Position numbers and translations under genes: made by a program
Shown: positions 3,481 through 33,080 of the stretch, one piece after another
How positions within the stretch are numbered: the stretch's first letter is position 1
Layout: every line of letters starts with the position of its first letter
Assembly (NCBI GenBank): GCA_011364925.1
Contig: RDOA01000036.1
Span: 1 to 37,789, forward strand
Source: Promethearchaeota archaeon
Lineage (GTDB): Archaea; Asgardarchaeota; Lokiarchaeia; Sigyniarchaeales; SOKP01
Length of the DNA: 37,789 nucleotides
Direction of reading: 5' to 3'
Notes under the pieces: generated by a model
The model's database searches: none
What the model saw: only the letters and a program-made list of their open reading frames with translations
What the model was told of the DNA's origin: nothing

Positions 3481-3554
3481 TGGGAGAGGGGGGATTCGAA
3501 CCCCCGACCACCTGGTCCCAAACCAGGAATCATACCAAGCTAGACCACCCTCCC
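3481..3554 (-). tRNA. tRNA-Pro (anticodon UGG), intronless, CCA not encoded
   Basis: Reverse complement GGGAGGGTGGTCTAGCTTGGTATGATTCCTGGTTTGGGACCAGGTGGTCGGGGGTTCGAATCCCCCCTCTCCCA. Acceptor stem GGGAGGG/CTCTCCC, anticodon arm CCTGG-TT-TGG-GA-CCAGG, T-loop GTTCGAATC. Confidence 0.97.
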
Positions 3555-10592: not shown

Positions 10593-11744
10593 ATGAAAGA
10601 AACAGAGGAAATTGAACTGAAGGATGTTGATTTATTCGCAGAATATCTAGAGTTCCAAATGTTACCTAGCATTATTCAATCTGCAGCTCAAGCCGTTCTA
10701 CCTGGAATTGGAAAGGCAGAATGGACTTCCACCAAGTTTTCTATAGATCTAGAATTTCCCGGGCAGATCGAAACGGTTGAATTTGTCAGATCAAATGGAA
10801 AAAAGGCTATAATTGGCGGAGAAAAAGTTCCTCCATTTTACAACTTTCTAGGGCTGGATAAAAGAAATCCTCACCCGCCTTTAGTTACTTACGATGTTTT
10901 TGACATGGGCTCTAAGATGATGTTGCCTAAACCAATCAAGCAAGAATATGGAGAAGTTCTAGGAGATCCAGCAGAATGGGCAAAATTTGCTGTTAATAAA
11001 TTTGGTGCGCAGAGTATAACTTTCCACTCTTTAGAAATCGATCCAGCGATGGGTGATGCGCCAGTTTCACAATCTGTAAAATATCTAGAGGATATATTGC
11101 AAGCCGTAGATGTTCCCGTTATTATTGGTTGTTCCGGAAATAAAGAAAAGGATGTCGAATTATTTAAAGCTACCGCAGCAGCGACCGAAAGTGAAGTTTT
11201 AATGTTGTCAGCAGCTGATAAAGCGACGTGGGAAGAAGTCATCCCATTAGCTGTTAAATACGATCATAACTGCTTACTTTGGACAAGCTTGGATTTAAAT
11301 AATCAGATAAAAATGAATAAAGACGCGATAGAATTAGGGTTACCACGAAATAGAATTGTTATGGATCCAACATGTGCTACTTTAGGCTATGGTATGGAGT
11401 ATTCCTTTAGCATTTATCAAAGAATGCGTATAGCAGGACTTCTAGGAGAACAAGATTTAGCCTACCCGATCAGCGGTGGAACTACGAACGCATGGGGCGC
11501 ACGCGAAGCATGGATGAGTGAGAAGCAAGCTCCAGAATGGGGTTTAAGAGAATATAGAGGTCCTATTTGGGAAATCATAAATGCGTTAACTTTAAGCTTA
11601 GTAGGTTTAGATCTTGCTATGATGTTTTCTGGAAGAGCAGCTAAGCATGTAAGAGAAATAACGCAACAATTTTTTGGAGAAATTCCCAAACACTTAGAAG
11701 CAAAGGGTTATTACGATTGGGTTTCAGCAAGGATAAAAAGGTAA
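10593..11744 (+). CDS. cdhD: Acetyl-CoA decarbonylase/synthase complex delta subunit (corrinoid Fe-S protein small subunit)
   Basis: IGGEKVPPFY, DVFD, DPAEWAK, AVDVP.IIG.SGN.EKD, IVMDPT.ATLGYG.EY, TNAWGAREAW, RGPIWE. The frame is open upstream to a possible ATT start at 10554. Confidence 0.94.
   Translation: MKETEEIELKDVDLFAEYLEFQMLPSIIQSAAQAVLPGIGKAEWTSTKFSIDLEFPGQIETVEFVRSNGKKAIIGGEKVPPFYNFLGLDKRNPHPPLVTYDVFDMGSKMMLPKPIKQEYGEVLGDPAEWAKFAVNKFGAQSITFHSLEIDPAMGDAPVSQSVKYLEDILQAVDVPVIIGCSGNKEKDVELFKATAAATESEVLMLSAADKATWEEVIPLAVKYDHNCLLWTSLDLNNQIKMNKDAIELGLPRNRIVMDPTCATLGYGMEYSFSIYQRMRIAGLLGEQDLAYPISGGTTNAWGAREAWMSEKQAPEWGLREYRGPIWEIINALTLSLVGLDLAMMFSGRAAKHVREITQQFFGEIPKHLEAKGYYDWVSARIKR
11712..11731 (+). 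repeat. 20-bp perfect direct repeat, copy 1 (TACGATTGGGTTTCAGCAAG)
   Basis: Identical to 22000-22019. Confidence 0.95.
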
Positions 11745-11895
11745 AACAAACAGTTTTTTTTAATTTATTTTAATATTTTATAATATCTTCAAAAATTGAT
11801 CTTTATTATAAAATTTTCAAACTGTTAGATTTTAAATGGATAGTTTACCTTACCTTAATTAATTAAAAGCAAAAAATAGAAGCGATAACCGAAAA

Positions 11896-12843
11896 ATGAA
11901 CGAGTTCAAGATAAACAATTTATTAACTGTGAAGTTTAGATATCCATTAACAGAAATCTATGTCAACGGAAAGTATTTTATGCAGTGTAAAAAATTGGTC
12001 TTAAATTTATCAAGAAATCAATTAAAACAATACGATAGTATTGATTCTATCGACGGAGCTGCTGAAATTTACGATCATTACGTACGTGACCAAGAAATAC
12101 TTAAAGGAGATGGACCACCTGAAGTAGAAATCGACGAAGATTCTTCTTTAATTGACCCGAGAGAAGAATTTTGGGGTCATTGTAGCAATCTACAAGCGTG
12201 GGCTGAACACGACTACGATACAAGATTGCTGAAGGCAGATTTAGCATTTCCATTACTAGAAAAGCTTTCTAAAGTCGGAGACAAACGCGCTCAAGTCAGA
12301 TACAAAGAAGAGATCTTGAAGCGTCTTTCAGGTGGCACTAAGACTGTTGTAGAATTTCTTTTTGTTGAGGGTTATCAAGACGATTTAACTAACGAAGAAC
12401 TGTTATATGGATTACTTGAGCCGAGAGAAGCAGAAATTCTGATGGAAATACAACGAGAACTAAGTGTGATATATATGTTTGTTCCAAGTATCGATCGGAA
12501 CGTAGGACTTCAACATCCCGAAGATCCTTCTATGACTTATGAACAGAAAAGGAGCATCAGAGGGTTCTCGATAGAGGACAAGTGCGTGAAAGGGCTACAA
12601 CTCACGTTCGCTGAATTTCTTCATGTACCAACAGAAATACAAAATTTAAAAAAATTAAAACAAATGAGATTGAAAGGAAATTATTCAGAATTGAACTCAG
12701 ATGAAATCGTAAAAGGTATTCAGAAATTAAATGGACTTGAAGAACTCTTCTTAAGATCTAGCTTGGTACAAAACCTCGAGAAAACGAGTTTAAAAAAAAT
12801 AAAAAAAATAGGAAGAAAAATCTATCCTATAGTTGGAATTTAA
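11896..12843 (+). CDS. Lokiarchaeal-type LRR-associated protein
   Basis: N-terminal domain EFKIN..L......TEIYVNG..F.QC...EEFWGHCSNLQAW.E..YDTRLL...LAFPLL.KL...GD, recalled as an expanded Loki family. The C-terminus has degenerate LRRs (VPTEIQNLKKLKQMRL, IQKLNGLEELFL). Confidence 0.65.
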   Translation: MNEFKINNLLTVKFRYPLTEIYVNGKYFMQCKKLVLNLSRNQLKQYDSIDSIDGAAEIYDHYVRDQEILKGDGPPEVEIDEDSSLIDPREEFWGHCSNLQAWAEHDYDTRLLKADLAFPLLEKLSKVGDKRAQVRYKEEILKRLSGGTKTVVEFLFVEGYQDDLTNEELLYGLLEPREAEILMEIQRELSVIYMFVPSIDRNVGLQHPEDPSMTYEQKRSIRGFSIEDKCVKGLQLTFAEFLHVPTEIQNLKKLKQMRLKGNYSELNSDEIVKGIQKLNGLEELFLRSSLVQNLEKTSLKKIKKIGRKIYPIVGI

Positions 12844-15302
12844 GGATTTATGTTGTAAAACAAATATTTTTTCATTATCAAACGATAGCCCGGAAACAAA
12901 ATCTCCATGCGTTCCATATACTCCTTAATGAATCTGTTAATTTGTGTGATATCACGCTTCGGATTATCGATATAATGGAAGTAGGAATTAATATCGCTAT
13001 TTTGCGCCCTAGTATCAGAGCTCCAAGCCTTAGGATAAATCCAAAGCTTTTGCCATGTTTCACTATCCCCCCTAAAAATGGTAGAATATTTACTAATTAT
13101 CATACTTTGTGAATATATCTCATTTGGTTCAAGGAATCCCTCTCGGTTAAAAGCAAAGATCATCTCACCATCGTTCCATGTTCCTGTAAGCTTCTTTACT
13201 ACAAATGTAAATTTACCAGTATAAAGAAGATTAATGACATGTTGTAGTTTGAATAAGTCATTATCGTTATTTAAATCTATATCTAGATATGTTTCTCCGT
13301 CTGGAAGTAGTTGAAAACTATAGTCCTCAGCATTTCTAAATAGCTCACCACCAGTATTAATATCCCCTCCATCAAAAAGAGGAAAAATTCTAATTTTCTT
13401 ACCGTCTCCTAATACATCAATAAGTCCCGTTAAATATTTACGAATATTATGGCTGTTTTGAAGTAATAGCTTAGCTCTATAAGTACTATATTCATCAGAT
13501 TCAAGCAAAGCACGCTTGCCCCAAGCTACAATCCCATAGTCAACTAGTTCAGACTGTTTAATTTCCAACTTAAATGGTTGTCTAGATTTTGGCATTAGAT
13601 AATTAAATTCCAGAATAAAACTATTTTGTTTTGACTCTGCTTTATCATTGTCCATAAATGATTCTATTTGAAGTCTCAAATATCCAGCGGTCTTAGAGCC
13701 TGCTCTCTCAGATATCAAACCTAGTCGAGCGTGTTCAATTAATTGATTAGCTAACCATTTATTTTTAGTTTTATCCATATAATAATGACCATCGATAATC
13801 TGTGTTTTAATCTTTTTTGCAATAAAATCTAAAGTTCCTGATTGGTCGTTCAAGAAGTTTCTACCCAGAATACTTACATCTGTAGGATTGAGATTATCGA
13901 AGCGGTAGCGTTCATAAGTAGATTCCAAATAAATGCCTATTTCTCTTGATAGACTGCGAATATTCTCTCCACTGAACCCACCAGAGGCTGTTAGAGAGAC
14001 AAGAGGTCCCAATGGAAGACTTAACATGTTGTCGTCAGTTTTAACATTTGCCATATTCTCAATTTCTAGATATAAATGAGATTCTAAGTGAAAAAAGCCA
14101 AATAGAAAAGTAATGGTGCTTATCATATCATTCTTACTAGTATAAGATACTAGCCTTTGAACAGGTCGATCGTATTGGAACGTTGACGGAATTAAACCAA
14201 TCTTAAATAAGAAATCCCTCATGTATTGACGCTCTTCAAGAGGTAAATCTTTAGCTTTACCTCTAGGTTCCAATGAAGGCCTATTCAGAATCTTGATACC
14301 AAAAGAACCAGCATTTCCATAGTAATCAATCATATTGGTGAACATTAACCGAATTGTGAAATGACCGAAGATAACTTTAGCCGACTCGAATATTTCGACA
14401 CCCATCCTAGCTTCTTCGACAGTACATTCTTTCCTGTTCCTTGTAATAGAGGCATCATCAAGTTTGTGGTATTTAGGTTTTCCTAGATTTAATAATTTAT
14501 CTCTCTCTCTGGCGTAAATAGAACCGTCGTTATGGGGATAGCCTGTTATTTTGTCATAAATTAGTTTTAACCATTCTTTGTTTGTTTGCTCGTAATTAAA
14601 CACTAATATTCCAGTTTTTGGATCAACCTTTTTCCAAATCAATGATTGGAGTTCTGCTTCTGTAAATCCTAGTTTCTTAAGAGCCGTGTTAACTTCAGCT
14701 AATCCCGGTCCCAGACTGAATTCCTCGAAATTAGTACCGTGAGGAATACCGTTTAAATAAGATAAAAACTTCATAGCGAGAGTCTGAGTTCGTTGAGTAT
14801 AGAATTGGGTGTAAGGATCGAATAATTCGTAAAATATCCTCATAAAAACCTCTTTGGTAAATTCTTCTCCATAAACAATAGAAGAATCTCTTTTTGCGAA
14901 GGGATCACATATAATTTTACCTGTTTCTTCAGTTGAACTTCGTTTAATTCCGAGATTAAGATGAGACTGGAAGTGTGGTTCAAGTCTTGTCAATTTATAA
15001 TGCAAATTATCGCTTCTTGTAGACGGATCAGTTAAATGAACGAGAGTTCCTAGGCTTAAATGTTCATCACTCTCAGTAAAAGAAAAGACAGTGTAGATAT
15101 CTACATATTCGTTGTTTAAGTAATTCTCGTAATCTCCCCAATACTCGTCGTTTAACCAAAACTCTAATCCCCCAAATTCAATTAAATCAGGATCGAAAAA
15201 TTTGCTTAACAAACAGTTTCCATCTATATATGTAAGCAATGCGTTTCTAATAACTTTCCCCTTTACTAGGATACCGTCAACATACCCTTCAGGCGTTTTC
15301 AC
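12840..15302 (-). CDS. Large hypothetical protein (820 aa), possibly the C-terminal part of a split giant protein
   Basis: Long open frame with a GTG start overlapping the stop of the upstream ORF (GTGA); no recognised motif. Confidence 0.7.
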   Translation of the reverse strand: MKTPEGYVDGILVKGKVIRNALLTYIDGNCLLSKFFDPDLIEFGGLEFWLNDEYWGDYENYLNNEYVDIYTVFSFTESDEHLSLGTLVHLTDPSTRSDNLHYKLTRLEPHFQSHLNLGIKRSSTEETGKIICDPFAKRDSSIVYGEEFTKEVFMRIFYELFDPYTQFYTQRTQTLAMKFLSYLNGIPHGTNFEEFSLGPGLAEVNTALKKLGFTEAELQSLIWKKVDPKTGILVFNYEQTNKEWLKLIYDKITGYPHNDGSIYARERDKLLNLGKPKYHKLDDASITRNRKECTVEEARMGVEIFESAKVIFGHFTIRLMFTNMIDYYGNAGSFGIKILNRPSLEPRGKAKDLPLEERQYMRDFLFKIGLIPSTFQYDRPVQRLVSYTSKNDMISTITFLFGFFHLESHLYLEIENMANVKTDDNMLSLPLGPLVSLTASGGFSGENIRSLSREIGIYLESTYERYRFDNLNPTDVSILGRNFLNDQSGTLDFIAKKIKTQIIDGHYYMDKTKNKWLANQLIEHARLGLISERAGSKTAGYLRLQIESFMDNDKAESKQNSFILEFNYLMPKSRQPFKLEIKQSELVDYGIVAWGKRALLESDEYSTYRAKLLLQNSHNIRKYLTGLIDVLGDGKKIRIFPLFDGGDINTGGELFRNAEDYSFQLLPDGETYLDIDLNNDNDLFKLQHVINLLYTGKFTFVVKKLTGTWNDGEMIFAFNREGFLEPNEIYSQSMIISKYSTIFRGDSETWQKLWIYPKAWSSDTRAQNSDINSYFHYIDNPKRDITQINRFIKEYMERMEILFPGYRLIMKKYLFYNINP

Positions 15303-15940
15303 CTTTTTGTCGCTCCTTCAGAAAGAAAACTAATCGCATATAAAGGATCAAGTTCTGGATACGAAGAAGGATCGTATATATTATTTATTATTGTTCCATC
15401 AACTTCTAAATACAACCAATTATATGAGAAATTTGGTTGGACTAAGATCGAGATACTTCCTCCTGCGTCAAAATTAATATCGGTTGTAGAATCGAGATTC
15501 ACAGCAATAGTATCAGATTCGATATATAAAGGTTGAACAGAAATCCAATCAAAAATTCCGTTCTCTACATCGGATTGACTCACATCTATCGAATAGGACT
15601 GATTAACTGTTCCGAAATCAACAGGAAAGATATTCATACCATAACTTACATCGTATTGCGATCCATTAAACCAGAACTTTGTATAATCAATATTTTGGAT
15701 TTTACAGATAATATAAGACTCGTTATATGCGTTAAAAGTATTGTTTGTTTTCACCGTTCCTTCGTATAAAAAATCAGACAACTGAGGATTATACCACTTA
15801 CATGGTTTTTCGTTAAATTCTCCAACAGGAAGGTTAATAAGAGGTATAAATCCCGAAAAAAGCATAGCAAATACAATTGTAATTGCTACAAATGACTTGC
15901 TATACTTGTTTTTTATAATTCTATTTTTAGTAGTCGTCAT
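15299..15940 (-). CDS. Secreted/membrane-anchored beta-rich protein (possible N-terminal part of a larger surface protein)
   Basis: Basic N-terminus plus hydrophobic stretch (FVAITIVFAMLFSGFIPLI); N-x-S/T sequons NNT, NES, NGS, NQS, NFS; abrupt end. Confidence 0.65.
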   Translation of the reverse strand: MTTTKNRIIKNKYSKSFVAITIVFAMLFSGFIPLINLPVGEFNEKPCKWYNPQLSDFLYEGTVKTNNTFNAYNESYIICKIQNIDYTKFWFNGSQYDVSYGMNIFPVDFGTVNQSYSIDVSQSDVENGIFDWISVQPLYIESDTIAVNLDSTTDINFDAGGSISILVQPNFSYNWLYLEVDGTIINNIYDPSSYPELDPLYAISFLSEGATKR

Positions 15941-16001
15941 AAAGACAATATTTAAATATTCCCATAAAAAGATCGTCCTTAATCATTTAATATAAAAAAA
16001 T

Positions 16002-16028
16002 GTCAATACGGTCAATACAGTCAATATA
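16002..16028 (+). promoter_or_regulatory. Three tandem 9-bp repeats GTCAATACG/GTCAATACA/GTCAATATA, putative RHH operator
   Basis: Read directly in the sequence, ~60 bp upstream of ORF 15940. A similar triplet lies at 19076-19102. Confidence 0.55.
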
Positions 16029-16060
16029 AAATATTGAAAAGTAATTTGGATTAATCTTGT

Positions 16061-16603
16061 TCAAGATCTTTGAACAACGAAAATTGTAATTAAAACAATA
16101 AATGCGATTGTCCAACAAATAACATAGTATTTATAATATTTTGTCATCTCAAACTTTAAACGAATTAATCTTCTTATTCTATATTTCTTAATGAAATATT
16201 CCACATTTTCTGTTCCTAAAACCTTTCTCATGTTCTCAACGATTCTTCTTTTGTTATCCAAGTCCCATCTATCAGGGCAATAAGGAGTTATTTTCAAGAA
16301 TTCCTTATAAATCAATTTGTATATCGCATCAATTTTCTTTTTGAGATCTTCTTTATTAAACGGGTAATTAGGATCAAATATTAGCCTATAATACTCTCGA
16401 ATCGCATATGTAAATCCAACAATAGCTTTTTCGTTTCTCTCTCGCTTTTTTGTTCTAAAAATTGCAGTTATCTTTACTTGTTCAATTTTCTCTAACAATT
16501 GTTTGTAAGCTTCAAGAGAATTTTCCCCTTTTTCTACTCTTTCGATTAATTTTTTAATCCTATTTTTATATTCATCATTTTCTTTATTTTCCAAGTTTTT
16601 CAC
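16061..16603 (-). CDS. Hypothetical tail-anchored membrane protein
   Basis: Lys/Glu-rich helical body with a single C-terminal TM (YYVICWTIAFIVLITIFVV). GAGGTGA precedes an in-frame TTG a few codons in, which is the likely start. Confidence 0.6.
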   Translation of the reverse strand: MKNLENKENDEYKNRIKKLIERVEKGENSLEAYKQLLEKIEQVKITAIFRTKKRERNEKAIVGFTYAIREYYRLIFDPNYPFNKEDLKKKIDAIYKLIYKEFLKITPYCPDRWDLDNKRRIVENMRKVLGTENVEYFIKKYRIRRLIRLKFEMTKYYKYYVICWTIAFIVLITIFVVQRS

Positions 16604-16664
16604 CTCATTCTACTTTCTTTTTGAATTTCAGATTAAAAAATTGAATATACAGACTTGGTTTTAT

Positions 16665-16877
16665 CTATTCCTCATAGATAAATACAAACATAAAATCAAT
16701 TTCCTCTCGGAATTGGTCTTTATCATATGGAGATTTAGGATCACTTCTTAAAAAATTTTTTTCGATACTCTCTGATGTAATTTCTCGTATAAATATCACG
16801 AACTCATGATCTTTATAAACCTTACTAAGAGTTTGAACTATTTGACTTGTAAAAGTTCTAACATTTTTATTTATCAT
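16665..16877 (-). CDS. Small hypothetical protein or gene fragment (70 aa)
   Basis: ATG-start ORF co-oriented with its neighbours; no motif. Confidence 0.35.
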   Translation of the reverse strand: MINKNVRTFTSQIVQTLSKVYKDHEFVIFIREITSESIEKNFLRSDPKSPYDKDQFREEIDFMFVFIYEE

Positions 16878-17187
16878 TATCTAAAATATAATTGATTAAT
16901 ATCTATAGTTGGATTATATTAATATTTTATAAGAAAATATATAAGGTTATACATAAAATCACCCGAAAGCTAACTTATATGGTTAGGCATGAAGCATCTG
17001 TAAAAAAAGGATCCAAAAATTTGAGGATTTTTTTGTAAAAAGCGCATAGAGGAAGTGAAAATTGAAATAGCCAAGAAGTTTTTATTTTCACATTTCTTTT
17101 TTTATTTAATACAATTCTTATTTAAAAAGAAATATTAGTTCTAATTTATTTCAACCAATAAAACATGTATGAAAATATCGAAGAATT

Positions 17188-18549
17188 ATGGCGTTTAAGA
17201 AACTAGGGAAAGATTTAGAATCAATAATGCGGAAGTTACGAGGTTTATCTAAAATTGACAAGGAGGCAATTAACGTAATTATTCATGATTTGCAAAGAGC
17301 TTTATTAAGTGCTGATGTAAAAGTTGAGTTAGTTTTCCAGATGACAGAAAATATCAAAAAAGAAGCTATGAATAATGAATTAAAAAGAGCGAGAAGAAAG
17401 GATTTTGTAATTAAACTTGTTCATGATGAGTTAGTAAAAATAATAGGTGGAAAACCGACTCCAATTCGAATCAAATCTGGTAAGAGTAATATACTATTAC
17501 TTGTTGGAATCCAAGGTTCAGGGAAAACTACGACAATAGGGAAGTTACTGAGGTTCTACAAGAGCAAAGGATATAAGGTGGCCGCAGTTACGGCAGATAC
17601 ATGGCGACCAGGAGCATACGAGCAACTTGAGCAGCTTACGAGCCAAATTGGTGTAAAATGTTATGGAAATCCTAATGAAAAAAATACAATTAAACTTGTG
17701 GTTAGACAAACTAAAAAAGCCATAAATGACAAAAACGATATTATTATAGTCGATACAGCGGGGCGCCATAAGGAAGAAAAGGAACTAATGAAAGAAATGG
17801 AAAAAATTGAGGCTAATTTAAAACCTGACGAAGTGATCTTAGTAATTGACGGCAGTTTGGGGCAACAAGCTTATTCACAAGCAGAAGAGTTTGCTAAAGC
17901 TACTAATATTGGGAGTATTATTGTAACCAAATTAGATGGAACGGCTAAAGGAGGAGGAGCGCTTTCTGCTTGCGCTGCAACTAATCAATCTATAAGATTT
18001 ATAGGAGTTGGCGAAAAATTAGAGGATTTTGAAGAATTTAATCCAACAAGATTTATAGGCACTCTTCTAGGTATTCCTGATATAGGAAGTTTGGTGAATA
18101 GAGTACAAGAAGCTGAAATTAATATAGATCCAGATTCAGTTAAACGCATGATGAAAGGTAAATTTACACTGGACGATCTTTTAACTCAACTGAAAAATAT
18201 CAAGAGAGTTGGAAAAATAAAACAAATCTTCGCAATTATGGGAGGCGGCAATATACCTGAGGTTATAACTAATGATGCTGAAAAAAGCTTAGAGAAATGG
18301 GAAGTTATTTTAAATTCTTTGACTCAAGAAGAAAAGGACGACCCTAAAATTATAAAAAAAACTAGGAAAAGAAGAATTGGTATAGGAAGTGGGACAGACT
18401 ACGCTACAATAAATAGAATGCTCGACCAGTATAACCAAATGAAGAAATATATGAAAAAGGCTTTACAAATGCAACGGATGGGGAGAGGGGGTGGAACAAG
18501 TTTGCCACCAGGTTTTGATAATATATTTAGGGGATTCGATGGATTCTAA
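17188..18549 (+). CDS. srp54: Signal recognition particle protein SRP54 (NG + M domains)
   Basis: [57 protein letters not shown]; M domain KFTLDD...[10 protein letters not shown]. Confidence 0.95.
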
Positions 18550-18730
18550 ACTGATTATTTAGTTTTGATTAGTTTGGTAAATTTCTTATTATTATATTGA
18601 AAATATTTCTGAATATTCCAAGAAGGTTATAGATAATGGACAAGAGCATCTAGATGTGTATAACATGTGCTCAATCATAAGAGAATCTTTCTGTTGTTCT
18701 TCTTCAACTAAAAAAGACATTAATTAGTTA

Positions 18731-19111
18731 TTATTTTTTCTTCTTGTTCAGGAACAAATAACCAAGCGATTTCATCGTCCGGGATAGTCTAATCGCCTTC
18801 ATTATCTTACTCTTATCAAGATTCGCAGGAAGCCGGAGATTTCCTTTATTGAACTTCATTATTTTAATGAATTCAAAAATGCCTTCAACTAAGGCTTTAA
18901 TTTTAAATTCTTGAGGATTATTATCCAATTTGCCTGCAATTAAATTTGCTGAAACAGCGTCTAACATCAATTTTGACACGGGAATTCTTTTTAACCATGC
19001 TAATTCCTCGATTTTATCTTTTGTATCTTCATCTACACGAATCTGAATCCATTTATCTTTTTTCAATTTTTTTTTTGTATTGATTGTATTCAATGTATTG
19101 ACATTTTTCAT
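18731..19111 (-). CDS. Ribbon-helix-helix (CopG/Arc-like) DNA-binding protein
   Basis: KDKWIQIRVDEDTKDKIEELAWLKRIPVSKLMLDAV fits the beta-strand + helix + S..+..A helix RHH pattern. Confidence 0.7.
   Translation of the reverse strand: MKNVNTLNTINTKKKLKKDKWIQIRVDEDTKDKIEELAWLKRIPVSKLMLDAVSANLIAGKLDNNPQEFKIKALVEGIFEFIKIMKFNKGNLRLPANLDKSKIMKAIRLSRTMKSLGYLFLNKKKK
19076..19102 (-). promoter_or_regulatory. Three tandem 9-bp repeats (GTCAATACA/TTGAATACA/ATCAATACA) at the 5' end of the RHH gene
   Basis: Same AAAAATGTCAATAC lead-in and 9-bp period as 16002-16028. Confidence 0.5.
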
Positions 19112-19545
19112 TTGTATAAATCACCCTCAAAAAAATTATTAGATTTAACGTAATTATTTAATAGTGGTTCGGTAGAAACATTTGTTTTATATCCAAAATC
19201 ATTAGCCAATTGTAAAGATAGAAAGCGATCTTTGAATCTTGGAGTATTCTTCTCCCATATTTCCAATGTAAAGTCATCTATACTTGTAATCGTTATCCTA
19301 TATTGAATTTTTTCTTTATATTTCCATAACGCGGAAACTGTTTTTGTCAAGGTAGCTAAATATGGTTTAGTAGTAATTAATACATCGTTTCCAGCCTTAA
19401 ACAATTTCCTTACAACTTTTAAATCACTCCATTCTTTAATTCCCGTTGCTTTCTTCTTTACTCTTTGCCTTACTTCAGTAATTTTTCCTTTTTCACCTCT
19501 ACTTATACCAACTTTCTTCAGTTTAAACCATAAAATAAAAAAAAG
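19108..19545 (-). pseudogene. Internally deleted radical-SAM-like (SPL/DUF5131-like) gene remnant
   Basis: The frame is open upstream of the listed ORF: ...KKKATGIKEWSD joined directly to LKVVRKLFKAGNDVLITTKP...RITITS...WE...P....R...L.....G....VS.EP. The CxxxCxxC region expected after the TGxxEW motif is absent. Confidence 0.5.
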
Positions 19546-19676
19546 TCAAATTGGAGATTCGTTAATTCTTTTTGTTAAACCTATTCCTTCAATGAAAACA
19601 ATATTGGGATTCACTTTCGAGATTCTGAAGTTCCCTGCTTTTTCTTCCCAATAAATATTAGTTTTTATGGGCATAA

Positions 19677-19847
19677 TTATTCAATTTCGCCTCTGTAGGC
19701 GGTTTCAACTATATTTTCATCTCTGATTAGTACAACTCCAACTTTAGGATGAATTTCTTCATCTTCATTCTTACAATTTAATGAGATTTCGATTGCTTTT
19801 TCAATACCTCTAATTATATAATCAGGAATATTGTATTGATTAGTCAT
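19677..19847 (-). pseudogene. Truncated cytidine/RibD-type deaminase N-terminus (56 aa)
   Basis: Manual translation MTNQYNIPDYIIRGIEKAIEISLNCKNEDEEIHPKVGVVLIRDENIVETAYRGEIE*. It has PxVG-hydrophobic and A.RGE, and stops just before the expected HAE zinc motif. Confidence 0.55.
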
Positions 19848-20081
19848 TTCATCTATGAAATTATAATTTTAGACCTTCTTTTTAAATAGTCTTATTTTAA
19901 GTATTGGATTCCAACTAAATAAATTAATATTATTTATTAATTTTTAATTATCTTTGTCGAGAAATCCTCTTCCTTGAGGAAAATGGATTCTAACATTTTT
20001 ATTTTGTATATCATTATAAATAATTGAATTTCCTTTAGACAAATAGAATTTAATTATAATCATTATAATAACGTAATAAAA

Positions 20082-21929
20082 ATGGGATTAGATATTAATA
20101 TCTACAATTTTTTTGATATAATTAAGGAATCTTATAGGTTCATAGACTTTAGAAGCATATTGTATAGAAAAAATAAAGTGTGGATTCGATTTCTAACTAT
20201 ATTGAGATTTTCTAATGAATCAGAAGAAGAAATAAAAAAAAGGTATGAAATACTTAAATTAAGGCGCTATAAAACTGACAATTTAATAATTGATTATCAA
20301 ATTCTCGAAGTTTCTGAATGGGAAGATAAGATTATTAGTATTTACGATGAACTTAATGAAGAGTTCGAAATATATGACTACAACGATTTTAGATACGATT
20401 ATAACAAATATAATAAATTCTTGGAGGATATGTTTAGCGATGTTAAAATCTCTCTGAATACACCCAATAGGAGATTCTTTTTAACTGAAAACGAGCTCAG
20501 TGAAAATAATCTAATTACTTTTAATTTAGGGTTTAATACAAATGAAAAACACTTAAATTTTAGTAATGTTGCGAATAGAGAAATTTTACTTTTAGGAGAT
20601 AATAATATCTATGATGTTATAAATCGTACATTTCAACTTGAGGGTTATGATTCAAACAACAATTTAAACATTTTAATTAATTTCCCGATATATTTCAGAT
20701 TTGTTAATTTACAATTTTCACAGCAGCAGCTAAGTGGAAAAATTATATATCATAAAATATATAAAGGCTCAAAAATCTTTTTCAGAATCTATTCTGAACC
20801 AAGTTTTCGTGAGGAATTTTTTGTAGGTGATAAAAATTTTATCATTGGAGAAGATTCTGAAGAAAATGTTGAGAAAAATAATGGACTAATTGAATGTTCT
20901 TTTAATATTTCTTTTAAAGAATTTGATTGCGATCCTAATTTTAAAATCAGAGTATACTGGAATAAAATTAAAACAAATATACTAGATTACCAGAATTCAT
21001 TCGATACTCCACGATATAATAAATTATTTGAAGAAATGAACTCTGAAATTAAATCTGAAGAAAAAAAATTGACTATTGATGATACCATTCAATTCAATGA
21101 AAATTTTATCGATATTGATTTTTCAGATTATGACCTTACATATTATAAATCATACATCGAATTAATTAACGGGATTGCTATTCATCCCGATTTCTATATG
21201 ATCTTACCACTTTTGTTGAGGACATTATTTGAAAATCTCCTCAAAGATATTTTCGCTCAAAGTCTGCACAATTCTAGTTCCGATCTTTATTATAGAGGAG
21301 GGAATCGACATCATGATTTTTCTAAGTTAATTGCTTTGTTAGATCTTCTCAAGGATAATGAATATGGTCCTTACATAAGTGGAAAAATAACAAAAGAGGT
21401 TATAAACGAATTAGAGGATATTCGTGAAATGGGAAACATAACGGTACATGATATTATACGTAAAACCCCATCAACTTATACTAAAGAAAAAAAGGATAAA
21501 ACAATAATAACTTTAAAACCTCTGCTAGTGGCATATAAGAATCTTAATGGAAAAAATATCCTTGTTAAAAATGAAAGGAAATATCAAATTAAACTTAAGT
21601 TGGGATTAATAAAAAAAGAAGATAAAAAAGATCAAACCAAAAGTAAAAAGAAAAAAAAATCAATAAAAAATAATCAGATTACGGACACCTCAAAAATATC
21701 AAGTCTCATGTCAGAAATAAGAGCTCTAATAACGAGTGATTCCATTGATTCTTTAAATATTCGAAATAAAATGGATGAACTTTTACTCAATTTGAAACCG
21801 TTACTTAACAATAGACAACGTGATGCCCTTGGAAAAATATACATTATCTTTAATCAATTCGTAGAGTCTGGATTTAAAGATTCTGCGCAAATTTTGTTTG
21901 ATGCGATAAATAAGATAATTTTAGGATGA
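20082..21929 (+). CDS. 615-aa protein with putative HEPN (DUF4145-like) domain
   Basis: LLRTLFENLL ... FSKLIALL ... LEDIREMGNITVH matches the R..E / R..GN...H HEPN arrangement. Very AT-rich. Confidence 0.55.
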   Translation: MGLDINIYNFFDIIKESYRFIDFRSILYRKNKVWIRFLTILRFSNESEEEIKKRYEILKLRRYKTDNLIIDYQILEVSEWEDKIISIYDELNEEFEIYDYNDFRYDYNKYNKFLEDMFSDVKISLNTPNRRFFLTENELSENNLITFNLGFNTNEKHLNFSNVANREILLLGDNNIYDVINRTFQLEGYDSNNNLNILINFPIYFRFVNLQFSQQQLSGKIIYHKIYKGSKIFFRIYSEPSFREEFFVGDKNFIIGEDSEENVEKNNGLIECSFNISFKEFDCDPNFKIRVYWNKIKTNILDYQNSFDTPRYNKLFEEMNSEIKSEEKKLTIDDTIQFNENFIDIDFSDYDLTYYKSYIELINGIAIHPDFYMILPLLLRTLFENLLKDIFAQSLHNSSSDLYYRGGNRHHDFSKLIALLDLLKDNEYGPYISGKITKEVINELEDIREMGNITVHDIIRKTPSTYTKEKKDKTIITLKPLLVAYKNLNGKNILVKNERKYQIKLKLGLIKKEDKKDQTKSKKKKKSIKNNQITDTSKISSLMSEIRALITSDSIDSLNIRNKMDELLLNLKPLLNNRQRDALGKIYIIFNQFVESGFKDSAQILFDAINKIILG

Positions 21930-21930
21930 T

Positions 21931-22032
21931 AGACATGTAAAAGATATTACTGCGCAATTCTTTGCAGAAATTCCAAAAGTTATGGAAGATAAAGGATACT
22001 ACGATTGGGTTTCAGCAAGAATCAAAAAATAA
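21931..22032 (+). pseudogene. cdhD: Displaced duplicate of the cdhD 3' end (att-like remnant)
   Basis: Translates RHVKDITAQFFAEIPKVMEDKGYYDWVSARIKK* versus CdhD KHVREITQQFFGEIPKHLEAKGYYDWVSARIKR* (24/33 aa, 76/102 nt by manual count). Confidence 0.92.
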
Positions 22033-22047
22033 ATCTTTTTAAATCAC

Positions 22048-23412
22048 TTATTTTTTCTTTTTTTTCCTTAAATTTAATACAAAAAACAAGGTTACCAATT
22101 CTATACAAGCAAAAGCAATAAGAGAATAAAATTCTGAATCAAGATGAGTCAAGTAGTTAGTCATTAAAGTGATAAATAGTAAAGCCATAAAAACCATACC
22201 TAACAGATTGATGATGGGTTTACTTTGAATAACTTTACGTGATTTAAATGCGGTGTAATTAATTATAAAAAAAACTTGAGCGAAAATTAATCCAGCAATT
22301 CCTGCTATAGCTAATGCTCCACCGGTAATTAAAGATAATACAACGCTAAAAACACCAGTGATGATAATCGAATTATAAGGGACTTTATTCTTGCTTATTT
22401 TTGAAAAAAATCTTGGAAATACTTTATTAAAAGATACCATATATGCTAATCTCGAAGAACCTAGCATAGTTGCATTTAAAGAACTGGAGGTGGAAAGTAA
22501 CGCACCTATAATCATAACAAACATTCCGAGAGGACCCATAAAGTTAGATGCCGCATTTGCTATGGCTATTTCTGCATCGGAACTGCTCCCCCCGACTAAT
22601 CCTGAAACTCCTAGCACTGCTACTGCTGTAAAAGCTACAGCAATATAAATTAACATTGAAATAATTAAAGACCATTTCATCGTTTTCAACCCTCCATTAA
22701 CATCCTTCATTTCATAGGAATGATAGGCTATCAATTGAAATCCAACATAGGAAACTATAATTGAACCACTTCCAATGAAAATATCAGGGAATTTACTAAA
22801 TAATCCAGTATTGAATCCGACATTAGTTAAAAGCGTATTAGGAGTTTTGAGCGAATAATTAAGTCCAAAAATTACAAATAGGATGAGAATCAGTATCTGT
22901 AAGCTCACAATTATGTTCTGGATTCGAGAAGATTCTTTTGCACCCTTTAAGTTGACCAAAGCAAACATAGAAATTATAAAAGCAATAATTATGCTTATAA
23001 CTATAAAGTCATATTTAATATTGAATATGAGTAGAAAATAAATCGAGAAAGTATATGCGTACAGAGCCATAGTACTAATATAACCAAAATAGAGTAGAAT
23101 TCCAATAAACGGTCCTAAAAATGCTAGAGATGTATCACAAAAAACCTGTGAGACACAAGAATATTCTCCGCCGGGATCGCTCCATTTCTTAGTGAGTTTG
23201 GTATAAGAATATACATTGAATAATCCAATACATCCTGTAATCAAGTAAGACATATAAGCATATGGTCCGGTATAGGTAGAAATAGCCCCAATAACGCTGA
23301 AAATACCGCCTCCAATTAATCCTCCAATTCCAATCATTAAACAACTAAATTTACTTAAATGTTTATGAAATAAATGAGCTTCCGTCTTAACTGTTATTTC
23401 TGGCTTTTCCAT
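22048..23412 (-). CDS. APC-superfamily amino acid permease
   Basis: ~12 TMs, TM1 GIGGLIGGGIF, PGGEY, TM6 SYVGFQ, SRLAY...FP.FFSKI....VP. Confidence 0.9.
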   Translation of the reverse strand: MEKPEITVKTEAHLFHKHLSKFSCLMIGIGGLIGGGIFSVIGAISTYTGPYAYMSYLITGCIGLFNVYSYTKLTKKWSDPGGEYSCVSQVFCDTSLAFLGPFIGILLYFGYISTMALYAYTFSIYFLLIFNIKYDFIVISIIIAFIISMFALVNLKGAKESSRIQNIIVSLQILILILFVIFGLNYSLKTPNTLLTNVGFNTGLFSKFPDIFIGSGSIIVSYVGFQLIAYHSYEMKDVNGGLKTMKWSLIISMLIYIAVAFTAVAVLGVSGLVGGSSSDAEIAIANAASNFMGPLGMFVMIIGALLSTSSSLNATMLGSSRLAYMVSFNKVFPRFFSKISKNKVPYNSIIITGVFSVVLSLITGGALAIAGIAGLIFAQVFFIINYTAFKSRKVIQSKPIINLLGMVFMALLFITLMTNYLTHLDSEFYSLIAFACIELVTLFFVLNLRKKKKK

Positions 23413-23736
23413 AATGCTTAACTCTGTAATTCAAAAAATAGCGAAACAAACCTTCGGAAAATATAAATAGAATTAATTAAATCTGACTTAAAAAAATATC
23501 CTTTAAATTCTAAAGATGTATTTAAGCTTTATGGTTTCATGATTTAGATGTACTTAATTTTTCTTAAGGAACTTAAATATAATGGAGAAAAAAGAATGCA
23601 TGGGTGAAAAATTATCTAATATTCCATTAAAAATAGCAGAATTCACCTAGAATTCTATGAAAAAATCAACTTTGAGCACTATAATATCGGTAATAAGGTG
23701 TATCGGCTTAATTGGTTAAAAAAATTAAAAGTTATA

Positions 23737-23967
23737 TTATTTGATTTTCTTTATCCTAATGAAATAGTCTTCCCCTTCAATTTTGAAATCTACAACTGAA
23801 TCTCCATGCGTTTCTATATACCGCTTAATGTTTTCACCAGATTCTCCAAAATCTCCCGATACTTCTAAAATTTCACCAATTTCCATTTCAGCTAATTTCT
23901 TTTTAGTCCGAGCAACTGGTAAAGGGCAAACTAATCCATCAAGCTTTAAATTATATGTTTTACTCAA
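23737..23967 (-). CDS. tusA: TusA/SirA-family sulfur carrier
   Basis: LDGLVCPLPV..TKKKL..M..GEILEV..D. Confidence 0.88.
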   Translation of the reverse strand: MSKTYNLKLDGLVCPLPVARTKKKLAEMEIGEILEVSGDFGESGENIKRYIETHGDSVVDFKIEGEDYFIRIKKIK

Positions 23968-23988
23968 ATTTCATCATCTCATTATAAT

Positions 23989-24348
23989 TTAACTAAATAA
24001 AATATTATCTGCTTGGACGCACATATCTACAAATCCGTTCATGGTTGTAATTTCAATCCCTTCAATCAACTCTTCTGCAGAAACGCCTCTAGCTTTAATA
24101 CAGACCCCACACGCTTTTATTTCCCCACCTTCATCGATAACATCTCTAATCCATTTTTCGACATTATCATAAGTTGAAGGATTTTGACCTTTTTTACCAA
24201 CAAAAACGCCATCTTCAACTAAAAAAATATTGATTTTATGACCTTCCAGTAAGGCAGTATAGGCGAATCTTAACATCGTATAAGGTCTTTCGGAAGAGTA
24301 TGCACCGTTTCCAATTACAATCGTGAAAGTTTTTATCTTCTCTGGCAT
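23989..24348 (-). CDS. dsrE: DsrE/TusD-family sulfurtransferase
   Basis: AYSSER, IFLVEDGV, ACGVCIKARG. Confidence 0.85.
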   Translation of the reverse strand: MPEKIKTFTIVIGNGAYSSERPYTMLRFAYTALLEGHKINIFLVEDGVFVGKKGQNPSTYDNVEKWIRDVIDEGGEIKACGVCIKARGVSAEELIEGIEITTMNGFVDMCVQADNILFS

Positions 24349-24529
24349 GATACATTACTTAAAAATTAACATTAATCTATTAGATAGGTTAGAGAAATAA
24401 TAAGGATTTATTAATTTTTTCGTATAGATTTATTTATATTTTCGATAAATTAATTAATTATTGTAAAGCAATATTTAATTGGAATTACTTGATATTTCTT
24501 CAATATAACCAAATAGCAAAGTAAGAAAA

Positions 24530-25438
24530 ATGAACATTGAATACCTAAGAAACTTCGTCAAATTAGCGAATTACAAAAGTTTCTCAGAATTGGCTCGAGA
24601 TTTGCCCATTTCTCAGAGTACGCTCTCACATCAAATATCTCAGCTTGAGAAAGAATTTGGAGTCATACTAATAAATAGAAGTACAAAGAAATTTGAACTA
24701 ACTGAAGCTGGAGCGATTTTTTTAGAATATACTCGTAAGATCATCGAATTATTCGATACGTGCGTAGAAGAGATATCAAAATATAAAGATGTGAGTTATG
24801 AAGAAATAGTCATCTCGGCCTCGACAACTCCCGGTTCTCATATACTACCTCGAGATATTGCTGATTATCGGGATAAAAATCCAAACGTAACTTTTAAAAT
24901 AAAAATTAATAATTCACAGGAATCAATAGAAAATATTATTAAAAATGTGGCAGACTTTGCCGGTATAGGTAATTTCATTAATTATAATAGAGATGATTTC
25001 GATTTTATTAAAATTGGAGAAGACCAACTCAAGTTTATTTGCTCACCTAAACATAAATTATTAAAAAGTGCGAATAATCTAGTAAGTTTCTCTGAACTAG
25101 TCAAATTTCCTTTTATATGGCGGGAAAAAGGTTCAGGGATGAGAAATGCGTTTGAACAACAGTTTCCAGATTATAAAAGGTTAAAAGTTAAACTCGAGAT
25201 GAATGACAATGATTCTATAATTTCAGCAGTGAGTGAATCAAATTACATTAGCATAATGAGCGAAATTATGGCTAACAAGGCGGAAAAAGCAGGTTTAATA
25301 CGCACGTTGGAGATTAAAGGAGCCCCTGTAATAGTGAAGAGAGATTTGTTTTTCATTAAACTAAAAGGTAAGGAATTAAGCAAAATAAAAGCGGATTTTT
25401 GGGAGTATATAAGCAATAAAACAAAAATACATGAATAA
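24530..25438 (+). CDS. LysR-family transcriptional regulator (CysL-like)
   Basis: HTH SFSELARDLPISQSTLSHQISQLEKEFG..L..R; ASTTPG..ILP; REKGSG.R. Divergent from dsrE-tusA. Confidence 0.92.
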   Translation: MNIEYLRNFVKLANYKSFSELARDLPISQSTLSHQISQLEKEFGVILINRSTKKFELTEAGAIFLEYTRKIIELFDTCVEEISKYKDVSYEEIVISASTTPGSHILPRDIADYRDKNPNVTFKIKINNSQESIENIIKNVADFAGIGNFINYNRDDFDFIKIGEDQLKFICSPKHKLLKSANNLVSFSELVKFPFIWREKGSGMRNAFEQQFPDYKRLKVKLEMNDNDSIISAVSESNYISIMSEIMANKAEKAGLIRTLEIKGAPVIVKRDLFFIKLKGKELSKIKADFWEYISNKTKIHE

Positions 25439-25517
25439 ATTATTACCTTATTCTCCTTAACTAATTGTTCTTTTGTAAGGTAGAAAAAGCTAAAAAAAAG
25501 AGAGAGTTATAGATAAA

Positions 25518-26939
25518 TTATTTAATTAAAGCTCCCGTTTTATCAAAATTCAGAAAATAACTAATTTTTTCTTTAAGAGGATAGAGTCCTTCTTTAAACA
25601 AAGTAATAAGGAAGATTGCAATGAAAAGGATGGATCCTAATCCTGGAGCGAAATTACTTGCTACATCGACTAACGTTGACGAAGGATCGAATGAAAAAAT
25701 AGTAAATATTAAGGAGCCGACTGCAACCAAAATTGAGATAAAAGAAATAACAACTGCCGTCCTTTTACTTATATCTAAATGTAAAGGACCGATATCTAAA
25801 TGAAAGTGTTTAGGTTGAACTATTATTGATAAAATTGAGTGGTTAATAATGTTGTCTTCAAAATCAATATACACGTGTAAATGTCTTCTTTCACCTTCTT
25901 TTTTATCCTTTTTACTACGATTCTTATTTTTTATCGGAAGCACTGAAAAAATCATAACCGGTGGATTTACCGCGTCTTTACTGACCTCTACTTTCCCGTA
26001 TAATGGATGCACTTCAAATCCTTCTCCTTCCACTCTTAAATCTAAAATTGGAGGCTCTTTTTTTGTAGTTTTTATCACAAAAGAAGTTTCAAATATAGTC
26101 TTTCCTTCCTCGTCTATGATTTTCAATTCTTTGTGAGAAAAGTAAACATAAAACAAATAACTCGTTTGCTCCATCATAACAGAATAGTATTGAAGCCCCA
26201 TATTTATTTCGTAAACCCTTTGTTTAGGTTCTTCTACCTTTCCTTCGTCTTTAGGGGGTTCACCGAGTACTCTTTCTTTCTCAACATATTGTAATTCATC
26301 GATAACAGATCTAGCTGGTGCTCCAGCTCCTGGTGGTGGAGGAGGCGCAGAAGGAGCCATTGAAGGTTCTGGCGGTGCCATTTCCTCCTCTTCTTCCATT
26401 AATTTGAACTCACCAAACTTCTCATCTCTCGACATTACCACTTCTTCATCAATAAAAATCCCATTGTCTGAATCCTCCATCTCATAGACACTTTCTTTCT
26501 TTTTCGCTTTTGCTGCTGGTTTTGGAGCTGGTGCCGAACGCTTTGCCTTTTGATTTTTAAACTTCTCCTTTTTTGCTTCCTTTTTTGATGCCTCTCTCTC
26601 TTTCGGTGCTTTTTCTCTTATATCTGCTTTCGGCTCTTTTTTCTCTTCTTGTTGTTCTTTTTGTTTCTTTGATATCAATTTCAATTGTTTTAATTTCGTT
26701 CTCTCTGAAAGAGCTTTAAGGGTTACAAAATCCACAAAAGCAATGTTTTGTCTAGTCAGGTGAGTACCCTCGAGTGAATTGTAAATATCATCCAATATCG
26801 TTGCAATGCGCACAGATTTCTTATAATTACCAATGAACACAAATTCAGGTAAGTATACAGATAAAACTTCTGTTTTTTTATCATAAAAGATTTTGTTTGT
26901 TTCAATTTCAAGTTTTTCTAGAGTTTGTAATGTTTCCAT
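25518..26939 (-). CDS. Hypothetical membrane-anchored protein with Lys-rich, acidic and Pro-rich linkers
   Basis: Low-complexity middle (APAPKPAAK; EEEEEMAPPEPSMAPSAPPPPPG), a beta-rich domain and two C-terminal TMs. Confidence 0.75.
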   Translation of the reverse strand: METLQTLEKLEIETNKIFYDKKTEVLSVYLPEFVFIGNYKKSVRIATILDDIYNSLEGTHLTRQNIAFVDFVTLKALSERTKLKQLKLISKKQKEQQEEKKEPKADIREKAPKEREASKKEAKKEKFKNQKAKRSAPAPKPAAKAKKKESVYEMEDSDNGIFIDEEVVMSRDEKFGEFKLMEEEEEMAPPEPSMAPSAPPPPPGAGAPARSVIDELQYVEKERVLGEPPKDEGKVEEPKQRVYEINMGLQYYSVMMEQTSYLFYVYFSHKELKIIDEEGKTIFETSFVIKTTKKEPPILDLRVEGEGFEVHPLYGKVEVSKDAVNPPVMIFSVLPIKNKNRSKKDKKEGERRHLHVYIDFEDNIINHSILSIIVQPKHFHLDIGPLHLDISKRTAVVISFISILVAVGSLIFTIFSFDPSSTLVDVASNFAPGLGSILFIAIFLITLFKEGLYPLKEKISYFLNFDKTGALIK

Positions 26940-26969
26940 AATACTTTCTCCATGAAAATTCTTTTAAAA

Positions 26970-27980
26970 CTATTGACCTTTAAGGTCTCTTAGGTATGCT
27001 TTAAATTCCAAGACATATTTTTTAATATCTTTTAATTTTTCTATTTTTATATCTTTACCTATCACTTTTTCAATAGCGTCGTTCATCAATTGAAGGTCTT
27101 TATAAGCTTTAAAACTATCATAGATTGCTGTTTCAAAATTAGATGTCCATGGCTTTAACTTCGGATTGGAATCAATTCCTCTTAAGTCCCATTGAACGTC
27201 GCTTTTAACTACTTTGGTTAGGGGTTTTATGCTCAATTCGTCCCAGTTCTTGATGATCCATGGTGCATAGCTATGCAATTTGTCGTAGTCTAATTCTAAA
27301 TCATTTTTCCACTCGAATTGATGATCCCAATTAGCGACAGCTATAAAATTTTCGTTATTAGCATGTTCTCCCGGAAAAAATTTCCAAGAATTTCTGTCTA
27401 TTTTAACGCTTTTAAATGGAGTTCCTTCTCCACTTTGAAAGTAATATCCTATAATACTAGATTCTCCTTTATTAGATAAATTGAAGCGTAAATAAACCTC
27501 GATTTGAGTGATATCAATACTACTATTAAATAATTCTTCTTGAAGTAGTTTGTAAAACACATTTTTTGCTTTGTTTGGATGGCATTTTCCTGAAAACACA
27601 GGATAAAATGTAAAACAATAGAACACATTTTCTCCTTGAATGGGTCCTTTATAGACCTCTACCCAATTTTCTAATGGTTTGATTTGCACTTGAGACCGAA
27701 TAAAATAAAACAGCAAAACCGAATCTACAAGGGCTACAACAACGATTATTATAACGAAAAGAACGATGAAGAAATCTACGATTCTAAAAAAGACCGATAA
27801 AGAAATAAATATGAATAAACCTCCAGTTAGAAAGAAAAAGGTAATAAGCAAGTTTAAAGCCTCATGCTCCTTGTCTTTTTTTGAATATAAAATCGTTGGA
27901 GCATTATCAACTATTACTTCTTTGCTGAAGTCGTTTATGAAAGTTTGAAAATCAACTTTATTCCAATCAGAATTAGACAT
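26970..27980 (-). CDS. Hypothetical membrane protein (two N-terminal TMs)
   Basis: Long ORF with a hydrophobic hairpin near residues 42-94; co-oriented with the preceding gene. Confidence 0.75.
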   Translation of the reverse strand: MSNSDWNKVDFQTFINDFSKEVIVDNAPTILYSKKDKEHEALNLLITFFFLTGGLFIFISLSVFFRIVDFFIVLFVIIIVVVALVDSVLLFYFIRSQVQIKPLENWVEVYKGPIQGENVFYCFTFYPVFSGKCHPNKAKNVFYKLLQEELFNSSIDITQIEVYLRFNLSNKGESSIIGYYFQSGEGTPFKSVKIDRNSWKFFPGEHANNENFIAVANWDHQFEWKNDLELDYDKLHSYAPWIIKNWDELSIKPLTKVVKSDVQWDLRGIDSNPKLKPWTSNFETAIYDSFKAYKDLQLMNDAIEKVIGKDIKIEKLKDIKKYVLEFKAYLRDLKGQ

Positions 27981-28226
27981 TTTTAAGCTAAAAATTTTTC
28001 ATTCATTTAAAGGTAAATTGATATCAATATGGGGTAATTATTTTTATATTTTAGTAGGTATAGAATTACCATCTAAATTAAATACACCAATATAAAAAGA
28101 ACCAAATAAGTTGGAATTATTTTTTATTAAAATATCTGATCTATTTGGAGAACTGGAAAAATTATAAAATCTGGTTACCACTGAATTTTTAATTTTTGTC
28201 CTTCATTAAATCTCTTATACAATCGC

Positions 28227-33024: not shown

Positions 33025-33080
33025 TTATTATTTAAATTATTTAATTTACTCTTTTTATTCTTCAAGAATCAAGATTTATA

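What the first reader, a model, noticed from the sequence alone, without database searches (positions are those of the whole stretch)
11643..22032. ~10-kb island inserted into the Wood-Ljungdahl gene cdhD, with replacement of the protein C-terminus
Seen: the last 34 codons of cdhD (11643-11744) recur in the same orientation at 21931-22032, 1 nt after the stop of the last cargo gene. The copy has no indels, an intact stop, 76/102 nt and 24/33 aa identity, 9 synonymous codon changes and a perfect 20-mer. Established: elements that integrate into protein-coding genes (e.g. e14 in E. coli icd) bring a substitute 3' end and displace the native one. Inference: an archaeal integrative element targets cdhD rather than a tRNA, the expressed CdhD is a chimera with an element-supplied tail, and the crossover lies near the shared CATGTAA (11646-11652 / 21934-21940). 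I know of no described element using an ACDS gene as its att site.
Basis: partly seen in the sequence, partly recalled or inferred. Interest (0 to 1): 0.85.

Follow-up and report, generated by a model that had tools for sequence, protein, structure and literature searches.

The report
Gene island replaced cdhD's tail
In this Loki-type Asgard archaeon a 10-kb block of foreign DNA entered through the end of a carbon-fixation gene, brought that gene a new end from a related species and left the old end behind; the same scar recurs in relatives and at other genes with no integrase found, so it is a footprint of recombination-driven gene gain, not a new site-specific mobile element.

Summary
Confirmed: the last 33 codons of cdhD recur 10.3 kb downstream (76/102 nt). 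The insertion is real. An assembled relative (96% identical) and a contig joint in another sequencing run show the empty site, where cdhD ends in the downstream copy and abuts the APC permease. So the orphan is the native tail and the in-gene tail is foreign. The site-specific reading is not supported. No recombinase was found in the island. The crossover lies upstream of CATGTAA (probably 11504-11585). Orphan cdhD tails occur in 11 of 85 related loci, sometimes stacked, with unrelated cargo, variable starts (mostly codons 350-371) and no shared arm. Similar end duplicates sit at about ten other genes of this genome. The foreign tail replaces the conserved His-Pro-Val with Ser-Gly-Arg, an allele seen once more, in a distant Loki genome, again followed by the same LRR gene and giant-protein remnant. 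Best model: donor DNA from a related Lokiarchaeon joined by homologous crossover in cdhD and an illegitimate joint at codon 351. This scan noted the same scar before at other Asgard genes (glyA, lpd, nrdD, leuS).

The parts
10593..11744 (+). cdhD (ACDS/CFeSP delta subunit), 383 aa, chimeric: host 5' part, foreign 3' part; only full cdhD in the assembly
   Evidence: PF03599 E 7e-54; mosaic against L151
11504..11584 (+). Last block nearly identical to the empty-site relative (78/81 nt); inferred zone of the homologous crossover
   Evidence: inference
11585..11744 (+). Donor-derived end of cdhD (75% identical to the empty-site relative)
   Evidence: 10/43, 11/18 and 25/99 mismatches vs L151, against about 4% in the downstream flank; tree groups it with L148, 99/97
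11628..11636 (+). S346-G347-R348 replacing the conserved H-P-V/I motif; donor-lineage allele
   Evidence: 128 of 131 CdhD have HPI/HPV; SG also in P0086/L148; MRHP in solved bacterial structures
11896..12843 (+). LRR-family gene (Loki multi-paralogue family), convergent partner of the giant gene
   Evidence: same convergent pair at other loci
12840..15302 (-). C-terminal 820 aa of a giant-protein family (homologues up to 13,892 aa); well-folded domain with no structural match
15299..15940 (-). 213-aa ORF with hydrophobic N-terminus, probably the N-terminal remnant of the internally deleted giant gene
   Evidence: inference
15996..16031 (.). Left arm of a 36-nt imperfect inverted repeat (GTCAATAC units)
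   Evidence: (I2)
16061..16877 (-). Two small unknown ORFs (180 and 70 aa); the first has a paralogue at the start of contig C76
17188..18549 (+). Second, intact SRP54 from a more distant Lokiarchaeon (xenologue)
   Evidence: 83-85% aa to three native copies that share 91-93%; GTPase motifs intact
18731..19404 (-). Ribbon-helix-helix gene (starts in the right IR arm, 19073-19108) and a 98-aa fragment matching phrog_13321
20082..21929 (+). 615-aa low-GC ORF with an R-x2-GN-x3-H motif near the C-terminus, HEPN/DUF4145-like (lead only)
   Evidence: Atlas rows under 0.9; GC 0.26
21933..22032 (+). Displaced native cdhD tail (codons 351-383 and stop)
   Evidence: 95/102 nt to the tail of the empty-site relative L151; joint 11627>21933; tree 100/99 with L151
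22048..23412 (-). APC permease: host flank, outside the island, directly after cdhD in the empty allele

Best explanation
Integrase-free, homology-anchored insertion with 3'-end displacement. DNA from a related Lokiarchaeon, carrying its own cdhD end and the accessory genes behind it, paired with the resident cdhD and crossed over inside the gene (probably at 11504-11585). The far end of the donor was joined illegitimately back to the recipient at codon 351. The gene stayed whole with the donor's tail, the recipient sequence between the two joints was lost, and the native last 33 codons were pushed 10.3 kb downstream. Shown: empty allele, native versus foreign tail, joint at 21933, recurrence with variable starts and cargo. 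Inferred: crossover position, RadA-type pairing, the end-joining step, and whether the mixed cargo came in one event or several.
For: Empty site with the orphan as native tail. Donor tract reaches upstream of the repeat. The SG tail, LRR gene and giant-gene remnant occur together in a distant genome, and A-like tails are enriched before the LRR gene (6 vs 73 loci, p 0.005, kin not independent). Orphans in 11 of 85 distinct loci, 0 of 85 on the opposite strand. Starts at codons 350-371 plus one at about 268, no shared upstream sequence, 0.7-10 kb of unrelated cargo, two loci with stacked orphans. Short end duplicates at other genes: 12 same-strand downstream C-terminal hits vs 3 upstream, and mirrored 5' cases, also in other genomes of the genus. 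One tyrosine recombinase and no serine recombinase found in the genome. Cargo includes a chromosomal housekeeping xenologue, SRP54.
Against: Starts cluster just after codon 350 rather than spreading along the gene, which plain HFIR does not predict and needs an added filter (purging of long repeats, or breaks near gene ends). HFIR is experimentally rare in bacteria (PMC5361080). The block 11460-11503 also differs from L151 (8/44), so the crossover position is not certain. The AU test does not reject one clade for tails A, B and L151 (p 0.42, only 117 columns).
Confidence: 0.65

Rival explanations
1. Decayed site-specific integrative element. A giant-gene element with its own copy of the cdhD end integrated by a recombinase, and later deletions removed the integrase and trimmed attR.
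For: The giant gene reads towards the target, as in aloposons (PMC8813620). An intact homologue of 13,892 aa has primase-like and ParB genes upstream. The SG tail travels with the LRR and giant-gene pair. Four orphans start at codon 350-351.
Against: No recombinase in the island or among scanned cargo. Target bases are deleted at the right joint. No shared arm among orphans. Most cargo at cdhD is unrelated to the giant gene. The LRR and giant-gene pair also sits beside other genes with no end duplication. Other loci carrying the pair keep His-Pro.
Confidence: 0.15
2. WHO-like homing. A nuclease cuts cdhD near the conserved Met-Phe-His-Pro codons (344-349); repair copies a donor tail that resists cutting (the SG allele) plus cargo, and the trimmed old end is joined behind it.
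For: 12 of 13 measured orphans begin at or shortly after codon 350, as FBA1 fragments begin just past the WHO cut (PMC7282813). Loss of a motif kept in 128 of 131 homologues is seen with the same cassette in both known cases. The island is identical in strains whose flanks differ.
Against: No cargo gene is a recognised DNA endonuclease. No nuclease is common to the islands. Orphans of the same 50-170 nt size occur at unrelated genes. Most replacement tails keep His-Pro.
Confidence: 0.12
3. Relic of a longer duplication: single-crossover integration of a circle carrying cdhD, or a whole-gene duplication, later trimmed from the 5' side.
For: One related locus has a longer orphan from about codon 268 with an internal deletion (L096). 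Trimming would explain variable starts.
Against: The orphan is colinear with and 94-96% identical to the empty-site relative from 21933 onward, with no decay. The upstream copy, not the orphan, is the foreign part. No other cdhD remnant in the island.
Confidence: 0.06
4. Misassembly of two strains.
For: Metagenome-assembled genome, 4.2% contamination; a second SRP54 lies inside.
Against: Contigs of other runs span 11531-18699, 18670-22284 and 19782-22563 with 0-1 differences and even depth.
Confidence: 0.02

Closest known systems
Homology-facilitated illegitimate recombination and sequential 3' displacement at T6SS/Rhs loci (Kirchberger et al. 2017, PMC5361080)
   Same: Conserved upstream gene as homology anchor, new DNA added, old 3' end shifted downstream, stacking of orphans, no integrase.
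   Different: Anchor is a single-copy metabolic gene, cargo is arbitrary, host is an Asgard archaeon, and the scar occurs at many genes of the genome.
Prophage e14 in E. coli icd with the icdC pseudogene (PMC13626634)
   Same: Insertion in a protein-coding gene, substitute 3' end, displaced native tail at the far end.
   Different: e14 is an excisable prophage with a fixed att core (integrase from own knowledge). Here no integrase was found, joints vary and target bases are lost.
WHO homing elements at yeast FBA1 (Coughlan et al. 2020, PMC7282813)
   Same: Repeated replacement of a host gene's 3' end by divergent alleles; 3' fragments pile up and start near one position.
   Different: No endonuclease identified, no gene common to all inserts, many target genes.
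Aloposons of Heimdallarchaeum (Wu et al. 2022, PMC8813620)
   Same: Asgard giant-protein gene, target site downstream of the giant gene, partition-type gene upstream in an intact homologue.
   Different: Aloposons have tandem giant genes, integrate at tRNA genes and have a four-gene MinD/ParA module. The window has one deleted giant gene, a protein-coding target and no such module. Homology to Otus/Ephialtes not tested.

Membership tests
Site-specific integrative element with gene-restoring att (e14/icd type) | Displaced native 3' end at the far end, substitute end in the gene | tested here: met
Site-specific integrative element with gene-restoring att (e14/icd type) | Encoded tyrosine or serine recombinase | tested here: not met
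   None in the island; genome has one tyrosine recombinase, on C27, and no serine recombinase hit
Site-specific integrative element with gene-restoring att (e14/icd type) | Conservative crossover at a fixed core, no target loss | tested here: not met
   At least 17 nt of target missing; starts at codons 268-371 without shared arm
Site-specific integrative element with gene-restoring att (e14/icd type) | Excision as a circle | tested here: inconclusive
   No back-joint in contigs of four runs, but contigs drop rare forms
HFIR-type 3' displacement | Homologous crossover at one end | tested here: inconclusive
   In-frame mosaic with an 81-nt near-identical block before the foreign tract; one relative only, 285 nt
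HFIR-type 3' displacement | Illegitimate joint at the other end, variable position, target loss | tested here: met
HFIR-type 3' displacement | Uptake of linear DNA and dependence on RecA/RadA | not testable with these tools
   Needs genetics or transformation
WHO-like homing element | Element-encoded endonuclease | tested here: inconclusive
   No profile hit; no fold match for the 820-aa ORF, best Z 4.7 and 3.9
WHO-like homing element | Allele-specific cleavage with resistant replacement tail | not testable with these tools
   SG allele is suggestive only
Aloposon | Integration at a tRNA gene | tested here: not met
   Only tRNA in the window is at 3481-3554
Aloposon | Tandem giant genes and upstream four-gene module with MinD/ParA | tested here: not met
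   One remnant gene, no ParA-type hit in the island
Aloposon | Homology to Otus/Ephialtes | not tested
   No reference sequence fetched

The most novel reading that the evidence does not exclude
Lokiarchaeia have a dedicated integrase-free gene-capture route in which breaks near gene ends, possibly made by a cargo nuclease of unknown fold, are repaired with a donor's gene end. At cdhD a cut-resistant Ser-Gly allele travels with the LRR and giant-gene cassette, a prokaryotic counterpart of WHO homing that rewrites the end of a Wood-Ljungdahl enzyme.
Probability: 0.15. Interest if true: 0.85.

Novelty: new variant of a known kind. Interest (0 to 1): 0.55.

Why it matters
How Asgard archaea take up genes is an open question, and the described routes are viruses, aloposons and integrase elements. 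This locus gives filled and empty alleles in living populations, an exact right joint and a traceable donor allele, so the integrase-free route can be tested at base resolution. It also shows that the end of a core carbon-fixation protein is swapped between species, even with loss of a motif kept from bacteria to Asgards, and that single-gene trees and duplicate-marker counts (SRP54) in Loki genomes can be misled by such transfers. The paper searches run here found no description of this scar in Asgard archaea, but that library is incomplete.

Tried and rejected
Integrase search by Pfam, PHROGs and PADLOC on the island: nothing. Fold searches of the giant-protein domain, whole and C-terminal half: no match in PDB or the Atlas, which does not exclude a nuclease. 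Atlas feature searches gave only rows under 0.9. SGR as a junction scar or micro-inversion: dropped once the same Ser-Gly allele was found in P0086. A dif-like or other shared palindromic core around ACATGT: not shared by the other orphans. Body-versus-tail identity correlations were uninformative. No RNA holder listed, so expression is untested. No circle joint in contigs, which proves nothing. Run X3 covers both flanks but has little or no cover across most of the island; not counted as evidence. cdhB/cdhC not found in the assembly, but their neighbour gene is missing too, so an assembly gap is likely; cdhA and cdhE are intact. The genome holding L148 could not be searched. No non-Asgard control genome was available for the gene-end scan.
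Full report
Observation. The repeat is as described: 11643-11744 and 21931-22032 share 76/102 nt and 24/33 aa, with 9 synonymous changes, no indel and an intact stop. It is the longest direct repeat between 10500 and 23500, and the genome has one full cdhD. Homologue names point to a Lokiarchaeon (Promethearchaeota) as host.

Empty site. ENA contig L151 is 95.9% identical to the window from 21933 to 33126. It carries a cdhD ending in the His-Pro-Val motif and the downstream-type tail (95/102 nt to the orphan, 76/102 to the in-gene tail), directly followed by the APC permease. In run X2 a contig joins 11627 to 21933 with 17 other bases between, which restore His-Pro-Val-Ala-Ala-Lys; the same run also holds island contigs, one across the right junction (low depth, 30 letters on the short side). 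Run X1 differs from the window at several flank positions but matches 11531-22284 with no difference. So the island is real, shared by distinct strains, probably polymorphic, and the orphan is the native tail. The empty allele cannot be an excision product, because recombination between the two copies would keep Ser-Gly-Arg.

Junctions. On the right, host sequence resumes at 21933 (codon 351), next to the stop of the 615-aa ORF, and at least 17 target bases are absent. On the left, the window matches L151 at 78/81 nt over 11504-11584, then differs at 10/43, 11/18 and 25/99 nt, against about 4% in the downstream flank. The crossover is therefore upstream of CATGTAA, probably near 11585; a further divergent block at 11460-11503 makes this approximate.

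Donor. The window has S346-G347-R348 where 128 of 131 homologues have His-Pro-Ile/Val and solved bacterial structures have Met-Arg-His-Pro. One other protein, P0086, has Ser-Gly and a similar following stretch. Its locus L148, 70-78% identical in DNA, is followed by the same LRR gene (57%) and giant-gene remnant (70%). A tail tree groups the in-gene tail with L148 (99/97) and the orphan with L151 (100/99), though the AU test does not reject holding them together (p 0.42). The tail and the first cargo genes thus came as one piece from another Loki lineage.

Cargo. An LRR-family gene converges on the C-terminal 820 aa of a giant-protein family; homologues reach 13,892 aa and keep the convergent LRR partner at several unrelated loci. 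The domain models at pLDDT 92 and has no structural match. Then come small unknown ORFs, an intact SRP54 xenologue (83-85% to native copies that share 91-93%), a ribbon-helix-helix gene, gene fragments and a low-GC 615-aa ORF with a HEPN-like motif. No recombinase was found. The genome has one tyrosine recombinase, on another contig, and no serine recombinase hit.

Recurrence at cdhD. The cdhD-tusA interval varies from 80 nt to 9 kb in relatives. Orphan tails occur in 11 of 85 distinct loci, counting the window, and in none on the opposite strand. Two loci have two stacked orphans, and genome G034 has one more plus two alternative cassettes forking inside the tail. Starts fall at codons 350-371, once near 268, with no shared upstream sequence and unrelated cargo. 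These loci are kin, so the counts are not independent events.

Not peculiar to cdhD. A scan of 2,798 ORFs of this genome found 12 C-terminal duplicates downstream on the same strand against 3 upstream, and mirrored 5' duplicates. About eight to ten of the 3' cases and three of the 5' cases are short fragments of 50-170 nt; the rest are paralogues. Two tested genes show likely orphans in other genomes of the genus. Earlier notes of this scan report the same scar at glyA, lpd, nrdD, leuS and other genes of other Asgards; they are unchecked leads, not support.

Mechanism. The best fit is a homologous crossover in cdhD with DNA of a related species and an illegitimate joint at the far end, as proposed for T6SS and Rhs displacement arrays (PMC5361080). 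The outcome resembles e14/icdC (PMC13626634) but fails the integrase and fixed-core tests. The clustering of starts just past codon 350 and the Ser-Gly allele leave room for WHO-like homing (PMC7282813), but no nuclease was identified. The giant gene recalls aloposons (PMC8813620) but their defining features are not met.

Verdict. Real insertion, chimeric cdhD, native tail displaced; not an att site of a new integrase element. A new variant of known 3'-end displacement, with unusually complete evidence at one locus. Interest 0.55.

Noticed in passing
window 12840-15302: Conserved C-terminal domain of Loki giant proteins (about 690 aa, pLDDT 92) with no structural match, repeatedly found converging on an LRR gene; candidate effector/immunity pair.
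   Followed up: partly
window 15996-19108: 36-nt imperfect inverted repeats of GTCAATAC units bracket a 3-kb block with the SRP54 xenologue and an RHH gene; a similar repeat array and ORF paralogue lie at the start of contig C76.
   Followed up: partly
window 17188-18549: Second intact SRP54 from another Lokiarchaeon; would count as contamination in marker-gene checks.
   Followed up: partly
L061-L058 (G008:C23:97-52154): Region with primase-like and ParB genes, a 13,892-aa ORF and a convergent LRR gene; no integrase seen in the contig part read.
   Followed up: partly
L032, L033, L031 (G034): Assembly fork inside the cdhD tail: two alleles of the LRR and giant-gene cassette (50% and 68% to the window's) rejoin before another orphan tail.
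   Followed up: partly
genome G000: cdhB and cdhC, with a neighbour gene, are not found in the assembly although 35 of 41 relatives have a strong cdhC hit; cdhA and cdhE are intact.
   Followed up: partly
G000 C91:5544-10390, C73:11803-15381, C27:102568-104825: 5'-end duplicates (start plus upstream DNA) 1.2-2.2 kb upstream of their genes, the mirror image of tail displacement.
   Followed up: partly
L016, L018, L023-L025: The cdhD of G034, G016, G001, G015 and G035 has a short insertion with in-frame stops (near codon 264 in the last three); possible small archaeal intron or break.
   Followed up: no
window 19677-19847: 56-aa fragment resembling the start of a cytidine/RibD-type deaminase (from memory; no profile hit).
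   Followed up: no
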